Source: a virus
Lineage: Duplodnaviria > Caudoviricetes
DNA length: 61,652 nt
Direction: 5' to 3' (one strand)
IMG/VR virus record: IMGVR_UViG_3300025011_000043
Coordinates: 1-61,652 of that record
Part shown: positions 15,078-17,423 of the stretch, piece by piece
Position numbering within the stretch: the stretch's first letter is position 1
How the letters are laid out: each line of letters begins with the position of its first letter
Position numbers and translations under genes: made by a program
The notes under the pieces: generated by a model
Told to the model about the DNA's origin: nothing
Database searches by the model: none
Seen by the model: the letters and a program-made list of their open reading frames with translations, nothing else

Positions 15078-17423
15078 ATGGCAGTTGGCAGTTTAAATGT
15101 CGATCTCGTTTTAGACACAAGCGACATGATCGCTTCACTTAGACAATCCCAAGAAAATCTAGCAGAATTAGGGCGGCAAGCATCAAGGCAAATGACAATT
15201 ATGAGGTCTGAATTCAATACGGCCACAATGCGCATGGATGAAAATACCGATGCAACGGAACGACTAACAGCACAGCAACAGTATTTAGGACAAAGATTGG
15301 AGCAGCAGCAGTCAGTTGTTGCATTGTTGAATGATACATACCAAAGAACCGTCGCAGTTTATGGCGAAAATTCAGACGCAGCGCAAAGGCTTGCCGTCCG
15401 ACTTGCAAGGGCAACAGAAGAACAGGCTAGAACAGAGCAACAGATCCGGCAAACAAACAGGCAACTACAAGAGCAAGCTGATGCGTCAGAGGAAACCGGA
15501 CGTAGTTGGTCAGGGATGGCTGAAAGGCTGGGCAGCGTCGGGGAAAAAATGTCTACTTTTATCTCACTCCCGATTGCTGGATTTTTAGCTTTGGTAACCG
15601 AGGGGACGAAAGAATTAAGGAAAGAACTTGCTATTTTGGAAACTAATGCTGAGATGGCCGGGGCAAACCTGGAAAAAGTAAACGAGGCCTACAGAACACT
15701 TAATAGTATTCGCGACGACGATTTAGCGGCAAATGGCGAAACGATTAACGAACTCCTGGCCTCCGGTTTTAAAGGCGACGATCTGCAAAAAGCTCTTGAG
15801 GGTGTTATTGGCGCAGGAATAAAATTCAAGGATACACTTAATTTTGAAGGTATAGCTGATGGCATCCAAGAAACCCTATTTATAGGTGAAGCGGCAGGCT
15901 CTTTTCTTGAGTTGCTCGAACGTATGGGAGTAAGTATTGATGAGTTTAACGCCGGGTTGGTTGCAGCGAAAGCTAACGGGACAGAATTGCAATATGTATT
16001 AGATACTATGGCAAACTTAGGTCTGGCTGATACCTATAACGCATATCTAAAGAATAACCAGGCTATGGTTGATGGTGCAAAGGCTACATACGACATACAA
16101 AAAGCAATGGCCGATTTAGGGAAAACGATAGAACCGATTATAACTAAGTTGACGGTTGGTTTAGCTAGTTTAGTAGGATGGTTTAATCAACTACCTACAC
16201 CAGTACAGAATACAGCTCTTGTTTTTGCACTTCTAGCTGCTGCAATGGGGCCGGTGCTTTTTATGTTGGCCCAATTAATAACAGTTATACCTACAATCGC
16301 AGGTTTATTTACGACACTTGCCGGACTCCAAATAACCGGAACACTACTAACCGGACTAAGGCTCATAGTGCTAATGATAACATCTTTCGCATCCGTACTT
16401 TTACCTCAACTTGGTGCCGTATTTACAGCTGTTTTTGCAGGTCTAACGTGGCCTATCGCGGCTGTAGCGGCGGCAATCGCAGCACTGATTTATTTAGGCT
16501 ACGAGATCATTAAAAACTGGGAATCAGTCAAGCAATTCTTTGTAGACTTCGCCAAGGCAATCATGGATATTTTTCCGAGCCTTGGAGAATTATTTTCCAA
16601 AACGCTGCCGGAGCAATTTAACGGTTTTATTAACTGGTTCGCAGAACTTCCGGGTAAAATCGGAAAATATCTAAGCGAATTAGTCACTAATATACCCTAT
16701 TCGATTGGTTATGCCATAGGTGCGGCGGTAAAACTCTTAGCTGATACAGGAGAAAAAATAATACAGTGGTTTAAGGATTTACCCGGAAATATTGCAGACT
16801 CAATGATCGAGTTCAAAAACACTGTAGTTGAAAGCGCAAAGGAATTGGCAAGCGAAACATTAAATTATATCCAAGAACTACCCGGCAGAGTTAAAGATTA
16901 TTTTTCAGAAATGATTGATTCTGCAATACAGGCGGGCAAGGATTTTGTGAATGGTTTTATCGAAAGTATCAAGCATTTACCGCAAAGAATCGAGGAGTAT
17001 TTTCTGAATATCCTGGACAAAATTATCAACTTCATCCCTAACTTAATAGAATCGGCTAAGAAAATGGGCAGCGAGTTTTTGAGAGGATTTAAGGAAGGTT
17101 TGACTGGCGGGGAAATAAAAGTAAATGTAGGTGCTACGTCTGGTGTTAAACTTCCTGGATTAGCCTCCGGTGGGACATTAACATCTACTGGATCAGTTGT
17201 AGTTGGGGAGTATGGGCCCGAAATACTTAATTTACCGCGCGCCGCCTCAGTGACTCCGCTTGAGGTAAAATCGGGACAGACTCCTAGTGCTGACATAGAC
17301 TATAACCGCATGGCTACAGCTATAGCACAAGCATTAACTGGTGCCAAGTTCGTAACAGACATAAACACCGGAACCGTAAAAATGATCGTTGGCGGCATTC
17401 TTAGGAGAGAGGTGCGTAACTAA
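15078..17423 (+). CDS. Tape measure protein
   Basis: 781 aa helical protein, VGSLNVDL N-terminus, hydrophobic middle, W/F-LP repeats, PGLASGG..VVGEYGPE C-terminus. Confidence 0.93.
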   Translation: MAVGSLNVDLVLDTSDMIASLRQSQENLAELGRQASRQMTIMRSEFNTATMRMDENTDATERLTAQQQYLGQRLEQQQSVVALLNDTYQRTVAVYGENSDAAQRLAVRLARATEEQARTEQQIRQTNRQLQEQADASEETGRSWSGMAERLGSVGEKMSTFISLPIAGFLALVTEGTKELRKELAILETNAEMAGANLEKVNEAYRTLNSIRDDDLAANGETINELLASGFKGDDLQKALEGVIGAGIKFKDTLNFEGIADGIQETLFIGEAAGSFLELLERMGVSIDEFNAGLVAAKANGTELQYVLDTMANLGLADTYNAYLKNNQAMVDGAKATYDIQKAMADLGKTIEPIITKLTVGLASLVGWFNQLPTPVQNTALVFALLAAAMGPVLFMLAQLITVIPTIAGLFTTLAGLQITGTLLTGLRLIVLMITSFASVLLPQLGAVFTAVFAGLTWPIAAVAAAIAALIYLGYEIIKNWESVKQFFVDFAKAIMDIFPSLGELFSKTLPEQFNGFINWFAELPGKIGKYLSELVTNIPYSIGYAIGAAVKLLADTGEKIIQWFKDLPGNIADSMIEFKNTVVESAKELASETLNYIQELPGRVKDYFSEMIDSAIQAGKDFVNGFIESIKHLPQRIEEYFLNILDKIINFIPNLIESAKKMGSEFLRGFKEGLTGGEIKVNVGATSGVKLPGLASGGTLTSTGSVVVGEYGPEILNLPRAASVTPLEVKSGQTPSADIDYNRMATAIAQALTGAKFVTDINTGTVKMIVGGILRREVRN

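What the first reader, a model, noticed from the sequence alone, without database searches (positions are those of the whole stretch)
15090..16025. Self-avoidance by codon-family swapping at every shared Leu/Ser
Seen: at all six positions where guide and own TMP can encode the same six-codon amino acid, the resident gene uses the other codon family: Ser AGT vs TCN (15090), Leu TTA vs CTN (15093, 15111, 16017), Leu CTC/CTG vs TTR (15105, 16023). Switching family in a six-codon amino acid is the only synonymous change that alters codon positions 1-2. Inference: selected self/non-self discrimination.
Basis: partly seen in the sequence, partly recalled or inferred. Interest (0 to 1): 0.88.

Follow-up and report, generated by a model that had tools for sequence, protein, structure and literature searches.

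The report
Phage VIPR guides spare own gene
A phage carries a recently described RNA-guided system (VIPR, here with an HNH nuclease) whose two guides spell the tail tape-measure gene as rival phages write it; its own copy mismatches them partly through silent leucine/serine codon switches, but the same spellings also occur in relatives that lack the system.

Summary
In detail: at all 6 of 6 sites the resident tape-measure (TMP) codon uses the other Leu/Ser family than the guide.

The "guide" is real and already known. The cassette at 13079-15057 is a VIPR system (bioRxiv 10.64898/2026.04.26.720920): a Cas7-like Vipr, an HNH gene, and two NN-GGH pentamer arrays split by a hammerhead.

- Guide 1 matches the TMP of cassette-less phages L021-L023 at 16 of 17 units. 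This works only with a one-base skip.
- Guide 2 matches L001/L005-type TMP starts at 13 of 19 units, against 9 of 19 in its own gene.

Against L001, the resident's differences pile up in codons 3-22, the guide-2 footprint. Read-position changes are 12/20 there versus 17/113 in codons 23-135, and family switches are 6/7 versus 5/26. Similarity resumes at codon 23.

However, cassette-less L006 shares the resident's family at 6 of 6 six-fold codons, and L020 at 4 of 6. Cassette-less pairs L001-L006 and L005-L006 also differ at 6 of 6. The two array-1 sites fit a 54% background.

Verdict: self-sparing by allele difference is likely. Dedicated synonymous recoding is not shown. The scan has noted the same pattern on other phage DNA.

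The parts
12113..12472 (+). tail assembly chaperone (gpG-like), left backbone gene
   Evidence: ORF. tblastn finds homologues at 72-82% identity upstream of the TMP in 12 of 27 TMP loci, and weaker ones in 3 more. No Pfam hit.
12532..12813 (+). minor tail protein T frame (gpT)
   Evidence: PF06223, E 2.4e-10. Bases 12706-12795 are 95-98% identical to L001.
12818..13075 (-). small zinc-ribbon-like ORF; left end of the block that differs from the L001-like backbone
   Evidence: Only weak zinc-ribbon Pfam hits, below cut-off. Identity is 87.5% to L006 but 44% to L001. Nucleotide profile.
13079..13321 (-). Cro/CI-type HTH regulator, divergent from the cassette operon
   Evidence: PF13443 HTH_26, E 5e-20. 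The same gene sits beside vipr in L059. Absent from all 27 TMP loci.
13368..13396 (+). promoter-like site of the cassette
   Evidence: TTGACA-17-TACAAT, 11 of 12 positions. Consensus match only.
13416..13706 (+). small ORF of unknown function (96 aa)
   Evidence: ORF. No Pfam hit. No homologue in the 27 TMP loci.
13654..13839 (+). small ORF of unknown function (61 aa as listed)
   Evidence: ORF. No Pfam hit. No homologue in the 27 TMP loci.
13858..14484 (+). vipr: lone Cas7-like RAMP protein, 208 aa
   Evidence: No Pfam hit. 1207 homologues at E<=1e-3. AF2 model pLDDT 71.5. Foldseek top hits are Csm3/Cas7 chains, E 9e-9, prob 1.00, TM 0.44-0.52.
14462..14752 (+). HNH nuclease gene (vap-type accessory), overlapping vipr by 23 bases
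   Evidence: PF01844, E 1.1e-6. The translation shows CxxC...DH...N...CxxCH. An HNH gene also follows vipr in L059.
14760..14844 (+). vrRNA array 1: 17 NN-GGH units (guide 1)
   Evidence: GG in 17/17 units. Matches the L021/L022/L023 TMP at 16/17 with a one-base skip, versus 8 at skips 0, 2 and 3. 30 unit-order shuffles reach at most 10.
14844..14909 (+). type II hammerhead ribozyme between the arrays
   Evidence: RF02276, 36.3 bits (gathering score 37), E 5.1e-5, full model length. Three-stem fold, -23.7 kcal/mol, z -2.1.
14915..15019 (+). vrRNA array 2: 21 units, 18 with GG (guide 2)
   Evidence: Best matches are 13/19 in L001 and L005 (14/21 in L001). Own gene 9/19. Skips 0, 2 and 3 give 8-9.
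15026..15057 (+). hairpin plus T-run, probable terminator and 3' tail of vrRNA 2
   Evidence: Read by eye. The terminator scan did not list it.
15078..17423 (+). resident tape measure gene (781 aa)
   Evidence: ORF. 29 homologues at E<=1e-10. Lies after gpG/gpT. No Pfam hit.
15081..15143 (+). own-gene site homologous to the guide-2 target (codons 2-22); holds four of the six sites
   Evidence: Unique best hit of array 2 in the window. This block is 58-65% identical to all 7 relatives, while the next 113 codons are 81% identical to L001.
16011..16061 (+). own-gene site homologous to the guide-1 target (codons 312-328); holds two of the six sites
   Evidence: Aligned position of the 16/17 match in L021-L023. 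Own match 6/17.

Best explanation
The cassette is a phage-borne VIPR system with an HNH partner. Vipr protomers bind the GGH of each pentamer of the two ribozyme-separated vrRNAs and expose the NN dinucleotides. These pair with codon positions 1-2 of a target and skip the wobble base.

Both guides are aimed at tape-measure genes as related, cassette-less phages carry them. The resident gene lies directly downstream and is spared because it differs from the guides at 10 of 19 and 11 of 17 read dinucleotides. Six of those 21 mismatches are silent Leu/Ser family differences.

The four sites in the guide-2 footprint belong to a 66-base block (TMP codons 1-22). That block is inherited together with the cassette and the zinc-ribbon ORF, and it interrupts an otherwise L001-like backbone. 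The family states are an allele-class polymorphism that also exists without the cassette.

So the pattern most likely comes from selection for compatibility between guide and linked allele. Guides or recombinants that match self are lost. A dedicated synonymous recoding of the resident gene is not needed to explain it.

Shown here: the anatomy, the one-base-skip matches, the localised divergence, and the presence of the same families in cassette-less relatives. Inferred: binding, cutting, sparing and selection.
For: - VIPR anatomy: Cas7-like fold, HNH, pentamer arrays, hammerhead. This matches the description read in sections 4, 10 and 20 and the legends of bioRxiv 10.64898/2026.04.26.720920.
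- Targets: guide 1 scores 16/17 in L021-L023 at skip 1, against 8 at skips 0, 2 and 3 and at most 10 in 30 shuffles. Guide 2 scores 13/19, against 8-9 and at most 10.
- 0 of 27 TMP loci hold vipr, HNH, HTH or the two small ORFs.
- Localised divergence from L001: read-position changes 12/20 versus 17/113, and family switches 6/7 versus 5/26.
- Mosaic profile: L001-like up to about 12800, L006-like zinc-ribbon ORF, a unique 66 bases, then L001-like again from 15144.
- In run X1 a cassette-less relative's contig joins 13074 to 15144.
- Pre-existing families: WIN versus L006 0/6 switched, WIN versus L020 2/6. Cassette-less pairs L001-L006 and L005-L006 are 6/6 switched.
- Per-site table: the resident's family appears in 1 of 1, 2 of 7, 5 of 7, 1 of 7, 2 of 7 and 3 of 9 cassette-less alleles that have that residue.
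- Array-1 sites: background against L021 is 25 of 46 switched.
Against: - The diverged block ends exactly where the footprint ends. In-place recoding predicts this equally well.
- No close donor of the 66-base block was found (58-65% identity to all 7 alleles).
- Wobble divergence inside the footprint against L001 (3 of 8 same-NN codons) is no higher than in the flank (33 of 95). That fits in-place change at least as well as import.
- Only 7 distinct alleles cover the guide-2 site.
- No second cassette-bearing phage with a homologous TMP was found, so carriers and non-carriers could not be compared.
- Guide 2's best sampled match (68%, or 14/21) is below the 80% the authors used to call targets. 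The mismatch tolerance of this system is unknown.
Confidence: 0.55

Rival explanations
1. One reading: the resident lineage was recoded in place. Under selection against self-targeting, its TMP footprint accumulated changes at codon positions 1-2. These include every available silent Leu/Ser (and Arg) family switch, because those are the only silent changes a wobble-skipping guide can see.
For: - 6 of 6 sites are switched.
- Against L001, family switches are 6/7 in codons 3-22 versus 5/26 in codons 23-135 (p=0.0025), and the excess ends at the footprint's last codon.
- The block is about equally distant from all 7 sampled alleles.
- Its wobble divergence from L001 equals that of the flank.
- Between allele classes, silent switches are a larger share of read-position changes inside the footprint (6 of 9) than outside (9 of 33) for L001 versus L006 (Fisher 0.049).
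Against: - Cassette-less L006 has the resident's family at 6 of 6 six-fold codons, and L020 at 4 of 6.
- L020 shares 9 of 22 identical codons with the resident in this block.
- The two array-1 sites fit a 54% background.
- In the two other VIPR loci with a recognisable partial own match (L042, L039), I count 1 of 5 six-fold sites switched, reading by eye.
- The switches are not needed to fall below 80% (13/19 and 8/17 without them).
Confidence: 0.2
2. No selection on these codons at all. The guide simply derives from, or matches, one old allele class, and the resident belongs to another. The 6 of 6 is a by-product of saturated divergence and linkage within one short block.
For: - Background family-switch rates are high: 29-54%.
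- Four sites are linked in one block.
- Cassette-less pairs show the same 6/6.
- The window holding array 1's footprint is not unusually diverged from L021 (rank 47 of 231 windows).
Against: - A neutral recombination junction would fall within 3 codons after the footprint end only about 2-3% of the time. This is my estimate, taking the junction as uniform over the roughly 118 L001-like codons that follow.
- Family switching between the allele classes in this segment exceeds their own background: 6/6 versus 9/27 (p=0.0045) and 6/6 versus 12/29 (p=0.019).
- A nuclease-linked guide matching its own essential gene should be counter-selected (inference).
Confidence: 0.15
3. The half-match to the phage's own TMP start is functional. 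Guide 2 binds its own gene weakly and tunes or times late tail-gene expression, so this is autoregulation and not avoidance.
For: - Array 2's best hit in the window is the gene immediately downstream.
- Published VIPRs act as transcriptional silencers (sections read).
Against: - Better matches exist in other phages (13/19, and 16/17 for guide 1).
- 9/19 is far below the 80% criterion.
- An HNH partner makes self-binding risky (inference).
Confidence: 0.05

Closest known systems
VIPR systems (Vipr + vrRNA + vap), type II of Escherichia phage SUSP1 and a Pseudomonas fulva prophage. Sources: bioRxiv 10.64898/2026.04.26.720920 (Results, Discussion, methods section 20 and searched passages read) and 10.64898/2026.04.26.720927 (searched passages read).
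   Same: - A lone small RAMP protein.
- Guide RNAs made of GG(Y)-NN pentamers.
- The target is read two bases in three, with the skipped base on the wobble position.
- Phage-borne, with guides aimed at rival mobile elements.
- No self hit at 80% or more.
   Different: - The partner here is an HNH nuclease gene, not a DNA-binding vap.
- The arrays are separated by a hammerhead instead of carrying pseudoknot tails.
- The third base of the fixed triplet is A in 6 of 17 units of array 1.
- The arrays have 17 and 21 units, against 9-16 published.
- Direct sequence or profile comparison with the SUSP1 Vipr was not done.
Nuclease-linked VIPR types III and V, and hammerhead-interspersed arrays of types I and V (same preprint; main text and legends of figs S19-S22 read, supplements closed).
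   Same: - A predicted nuclease as accessory gene; HNH is named in the fig. S21 legend.
- Ribozyme-vrRNA arrays.
- Guides that hit viral sequences.
   Different: - Those types are described as enriched in host defence islands. This one sits inside a phage tail module, and its guides spell the gene next to the cassette.
- The type could not be assigned here, because the classification data are in supplements I could not open.
Autoimmunity avoidance and 'no mutational escape' in VIPR (bioRxiv 10.64898/2026.10.15.759431; searched passages read).
   Same: - Self-match scores lower than matches to rivals are reported there for vrRNA-targeting vrRNAs.
- Wobble-aligned guides are reported there too.
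   Different: - That paper argues that escape needs amino-acid-changing mutations.
- Silent Leu/Ser/Arg family switches are not mentioned in its main text: 0 hits for leucine, arginine, six-fold, sixfold; the single 'serine' hit is the recombinase catalytic serine.
- They are not mentioned in the first preprint's main text either.
Free-standing phage homing endonucleases with intronless homing, such as the T-even Seg and Mob enzymes (recalled from general knowledge; no call).
   Same: - A nuclease gene is inserted beside its target site in cassette-less alleles.
- The resident allele is diverged at the site.
- A block of flanking sequence travels with the gene.
   Different: - Recognition here would be by RNA through Vipr, not by the nuclease's own DNA-binding domain.
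- Cleavage and copying are not shown.

Membership tests
VIPR | Lone small RAMP (Vipr) protein with an RRM core and glycine-rich loop | tested here: met
   208 aa. AF2 model pLDDT 71.5. Foldseek top hits are Csm3/Cas7 chains of type III-A and type VII, E 9e-9, prob 1.00. The G-rich C-terminal motif is invariant in 20 homologues. No direct comparison with a published Vipr sequence was made.
VIPR | vrRNA of tandem pentamers with a fixed GGY and variable NN | tested here: met
   GG in 17/17 and 18/21 units. The third base is H, not strictly Y; the preprint allows 'a related consensus'.
VIPR | Targets follow the one-nucleotide skip rule, with the skip on the wobble position of a coding sequence | tested here: met
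   Guide 1 scores 16/17 in frame in the L021-L023 TMP at skip 1, against 8 at skips 0, 2 and 3. Guide 2 scores 13/19, against 8-9.
VIPR | Adjacent accessory (vap) gene with a DNA-related function | tested here: met
   HNH, PF01844, E 1.1e-6, overlapping the vipr 3' end.
VIPR | Processed vrRNAs bound by Vipr; DNA binding or silencing | not testable with these tools
   No RNA run holds the stretch. Biochemistry is needed.
VIPR | Type (I-VII) by Vipr phylogeny, array architecture and vap | not tested
   The classification data are in supplements that are closed. HNH plus hammerhead arrays point to type III or V by the text read.
Hammerhead ribozyme, type II (RF02276) | Full catalytic core and three stems scored by the covariance model | tested here: inconclusive
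   36.3 bits, just under the gathering score of 37. E 5.1e-5, model positions 1-66 of 66. The fold is consistent.
Homing endonuclease element | Nuclease gene inserted next to its recognition site, which is intact in alleles that lack the gene | tested here: met
   The guide-2 footprint starts 3 bases into the TMP, about 60 bases after array 2. L001 and L006 lack the cassette at that site.
Homing endonuclease element | Cleavage of the empty allele and copying of the element with co-conversion of flanks | not testable with these tools
   The mosaic block 12800-15143 in an L001-like backbone is compatible, but ordinary recombination explains it equally.
CRISPR-Cas | Array of long direct repeats with spacers, plus adaptation genes | tested here: not met
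   Tandem Repeats Finder lists no such array in the window. The 10 ORFs scanned around the cassette give no Cas family in Pfam. cas1/cas2 were not searched for in the rest of the window.

The most novel reading that the evidence does not exclude
The cassette is an RNA-guided homing or rival-exclusion element. Vipr-vrRNA complexes direct the HNH nuclease to the tape-measure gene of co-infecting or resident sibling phages. The break is repaired from the cassette-bearing genome, so the zinc-ribbon ORF, the cassette and a guide-resistant 66-base TMP start are copied as one block. This window would be the product of such an event in an L001-like phage.

A corollary follows. Silent switches between the two codon families of Leu, Ser and Arg are the loophole in the published argument that wobble-skipping blocks silent escape. 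They would maintain two allele classes of the TMP start in the phage population.
Probability: 0.3. Interest if true: 0.8.

Novelty: new member of a known kind. Interest (0 to 1): 0.4.

Why it matters
VIPR was first described in 2026 preprints, and its authors argue that skipping the wobble base stops targets from escaping by silent mutation. This locus is a natural case where half of a guide's mismatches to a conserved protein segment are silent, made through the split codon families of Leu, Ser and Arg. Two such spellings of one tape-measure N-terminus circulate in related phages. If selection maintains that, it qualifies the 'no silent escape' argument and offers a simple design rule for guide-resistant alleles.

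The layout also makes RNA-guided homing by a VIPR directly testable. A nuclease-linked VIPR sits beside the gene it targets, and a diverged block ends at the footprint edge. I found no paper holding the terms VIPR, vrRNA and homing together.

Tried and rejected
- Tandem Repeats Finder did not report the pentamer arrays. They were parsed by script.
- My first parse read the units as GG plus a triplet.
- Exact pattern scans for a better guide-2 target found nothing:
  - 0 hits for 17 units in viral contigs.
  - 0 hits within 3 mismatches in the window's own record.
  - The 9-unit core found only L001's contig plus one other viral contig. That contig and the 11 genome contigs reached at most 11 of 20 units, so they are chance hits.
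- GenBank phages hold no close TMP (4 records at 27-33% identity) and no close Vipr (1 record at 26%).
- Rfam at gathering threshold on 10 VIPR loci returned only a tRNA. A crude regex found hammerhead-like cores between arrays in L059 and L032 only.
- Generality across 40 other VIPR loci: guides were scanned against their own 8-kb flanks and against all loci. Only L039, L034, L042 and L066 had self hits above 55% for arrays of 13 or more units. On inspection, L042 and L039 gave 1 of 5 six-fold sites switched (my count). This is too weak to count either way.
- No RNA holder was listed for the stretch, so expression and ribozyme cutting could not be examined.
- DNA for the closest TMP, P0002 (85% identity), could not be fetched.
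- Rows left out of the codon tables: of L001-L027, only loci with a recognisable homologous site were shown (14 loci for guide 1, 9 for guide 2). Copies with the same codons at the footprints were collapsed: L001=L002=L068, L003=L017, L004=L018, L005=L016=L019, L021=L022=L023. L015's best guide-1 hit is not homologous and was ignored.
- Supplements of all papers were closed. Data S3/S4 of the first preprint may already list this clade, its type and its targets.
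Full report
**What is there.** The window is a viral record, 61,652 bases and 83% complete by the tool's figure. Between the tail chaperone genes (gpG-like 12113-12472; gpT 12532-12813, PF06223) and a 781-aa tape measure gene (TMP, 15078-17423) lies an inserted unit. Its parts, in order:
- a small zinc-ribbon-like ORF on the minus strand (12818-13075);
- a Cro/CI-type HTH gene (13079-13321, minus strand);
- a promoter-like site (13368-13396, 11 of 12 positions);
- two small ORFs;
- a 208-aa protein with no Pfam family (13858-14484);
- an overlapping 96-aa HNH gene (14462-14752, PF01844);
- 85 bases of NN-GGH pentamers (14760-14844, GG in 17 of 17 units);
- a type II hammerhead (14844-14909; RF02276, 36.3 bits against a gathering score of 37, E 5e-5);
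- a second pentamer tract (14915-15019, GG in 18 of 21 units);
- a hairpin with a T-run, read by eye.

**It is a known kind.** A literature search led to bioRxiv 10.64898/2026.04.26.720920. I read its Results, Discussion, type-classification method and searched passages. It describes VIPR systems with these features:
- a lone roughly 20-kD RAMP (Vipr), vrRNAs of GGY/NN pentamers and an accessory vap gene;
- the NN dinucleotides pair with DNA while one target base per unit is skipped, usually the codon wobble base;
- hammerhead-interspersed arrays in types I and V, and nuclease or helicase partners in types III-V.

Two further preprints (passages read) give cryo-EM structures and a phage-satellite conflict.

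I tested the defining features here:
- The 208-aa protein has 1207 homologues at E<=1e-3.
- Its AF2 model (pLDDT 71.5) hits Csm3/Cas7 chains at E 9e-9 and probability 1.00.
- The one-base skip is uniquely right. Over 80 loci (862,580 bases, both strands) guide 1 reaches 16/17 at skip 1 but 8 at skips 0, 2 and 3. Guide 2 reaches 13/19 against 8-9. Thirty unit-order shuffles reach at most 10.

**The targets.** Homologues of the TMP were collected from viral and metagenome contigs.
- Guide 1 matches the in-frame TMP of L021, L022 and L023 at 16 of 17 units. The match lies at the position that aligns with resident codons 312-328.
- Guide 2 matches the TMP start of L001 and L005 at 13 of 19 units. 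In L001, 11 of the first 12 units match.
- The resident gene matches at only 6/17 and 9/19.
- None of the 27 TMP loci holds vipr, HNH, the HTH gene or the two small ORFs (tblastn), and none has pentamer arrays.

So both guides point at cassette-less relatives' copies of the gene next door. In run X1, which may be the source sample, contigs of cassette-less relatives lie beside the carrier. One of them joins 13074 to 15144.

**The six sites.** Elsewhere in the same gene pairs, family switches at conserved Leu/Ser/Arg codons are common:
- 31 of 108 against L001;
- 30-35 of 77-94 against L003, L004, L005 and L020;
- 25 of 46 against L021.

The two array-1 sites are therefore unremarkable. The window that holds them is not unusually diverged from L021 either (rank 47 of 231).

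The four array-2 sites are different. Against L001 the resident has read-position changes in 12 of 20 codons of the footprint, against 17 of 113 in codons 23-135 (Fisher 5.5e-5). Family switches are 6 of 7 against 5 of 26 (p=0.0025). Similarity to L001 runs 58% in codons 1-22 and then 81% in codons 23-135, resuming at base 15144.

The nucleotide profile shows a mosaic:
- L001-like up to about 12800 (95-98% at the gpT 3' end);
- a zinc-ribbon ORF that is L006-like (87.5% protein identity, against 44% for L001);
- the cassette;
- 66 bases that are close to nothing sampled;
- L001-like sequence again.

**Why this does not prove recoding.** They do. Counting distinct cassette-less alleles that have the residue at each site:

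| Site | Resident family | Alleles sharing it | Which |
|---|---|---|---|
| 15090 | AGT | 1 of 1 | L001; the others have Gln or Ala |
| 15093 | TTR | 2 of 7 | L020, L006 |
| 15105 | CTN | 5 of 7 | |
| 15111 | TTR | 1 of 7 | L006 |
| 16017 | TTA | 2 of 7 | L001, L003 |
| 16023 | CTG | 3 of 9 | L004, L005, L010 |

Further points:
- L006 is the best model of the empty site. It shares the resident's family at 6 of 6 six-fold codons in codons 3-22, and L020 shares 4 of 6.
- The cassette-less pairs L001-L006 and L005-L006 differ at 6 of 6.
- So two spellings of this conserved N-terminus circulate regardless of the cassette. The guide fits one and the carrier has the other.
- That dimorphism is itself richer in family switches than the rest of the gene: 6/6 against 9/27 (p=0.0045) and 6/6 against 12/29 (p=0.019). 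This is compatible with guide-driven diversification in the population but does not show it.
- Family switches are 6 of the 21 mismatched units. Without them the own gene would still match at only 13/19 and 8/17, below the 80% the authors used to call targets. However, 13/19 equals the best rival match found, so whether they matter depends on an unknown tolerance.

**What cannot be told.** In-place recoding and import of a resistant block with the cassette both predict a diverged block that ends at the footprint edge. A neutral junction would land there only a few percent of the time by my estimate. Three limits apply:
- Wobble divergence inside the footprint (3 of 8 against L001, 10 of 14 against L006, 4 of 14 against L020) rests on too few codons to decide.
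- No second carrier with a homologous TMP was found.

The same HTH-vipr-HNH-array-hammerhead-array cassette (87% Vipr identity) sits elsewhere in L059 with other guides. So the cassette is mobile, and aiming at the neighbouring gene is not universal.

**Comparison with print.**
- The first and third preprints argue that wobble skipping blocks silent escape.
- Neither main text mentions leucine, arginine, six-fold or sixfold. 'Serine' has 0 hits in the first preprint and 1 in the third, which refers to a catalytic serine.
- I did not search the cryo-EM paper for these words, and supplements were closed.
- No paper in the library holds VIPR, vrRNA and homing together.
- Lower self-match as a way to avoid autoimmunity is reported for vrRNA-targeting vrRNAs.

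**Earlier notes of this scan.**
- Notes on this window gave me the NN reading.
- Notes on other genomes report the same Leu/Ser/Arg family pattern in other VIPR phages, and guides that spell the neighbouring gene of cassette-less siblings.
- These are unchecked leads, not support. They do name material for the cross-genome test that would settle the question.

**Verdict.** The system is a new member of the published VIPR kind, nuclease-linked and phage-borne. The carrier's own TMP is very probably spared by allele differences that travel with the cassette, and silent family differences are part of them. A dedicated codon-family recoding is not shown, and the same spellings in cassette-less relatives count against it.

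Noticed in passing
window 12800-15143: Relative to an L001-like backbone, the zinc-ribbon ORF, the cassette and TMP codons 1-22 form one foreign block. The zinc-ribbon ORF is 87.5% identical to L006's but 44% to L001's.
   Followed up: partly
L028-L067, array ends: Many arrays of related VIPR loci end in the same two units, AA-GGY AA-GGR. Array 1 of the window does too. These may be a constant 3' handle and not guide positions.
   Followed up: no
L059:7640-9165: The same HTH-vipr-HNH-array-hammerhead-array cassette (Vipr 87% identical) sits after a 1063-aa LPD38-domain protein and before a second HTH_26 gene and an amidase. Its guides are different and match nothing within 8 kb.
   Followed up: partly
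window 13074/15144 and 12880/15234, run X1: Contigs of lower depth (7.6-8.9 against 63) join across the cassette. So cassette-less relatives co-occur with the carrier in a run that may be the window's source.
   Followed up: partly
window 13903-14349, runs X2/X3: A 771-base contig about 80% like vipr continues behind 14756 into different pentamer units. This looks like a second VIPR variant with other guides in the same runs.
   Followed up: no
L042:8614 guide; own hit on minus strand at 4431; L050 minus strand at 9364: A guide of another VIPR phage matches a homologous coding segment at 13/18 in L050 and 11/18 in its own locus. The own copy has Arg AGA where the guide reads CG, but matches the guide's family at a Leu and a second Arg.
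   Followed up: partly
window 15078-17423 vs L001: The TMP is a mosaic relative to L001. Codons 21-140 and 461-771 are similar, while codons 141-460 are diverged. Protein P0002 is 85% identical overall.
   Followed up: partly
window 28472-28535: My loose hammerhead-core regex also matched here. It was not checked with Rfam.
   Followed up: no
window 12440-12540: gpG stops at 12472 and the gpT frame opens upstream of it. This is the usual layout for a programmed frameshift in tail chaperones. No slippery site was examined.
   Followed up: no
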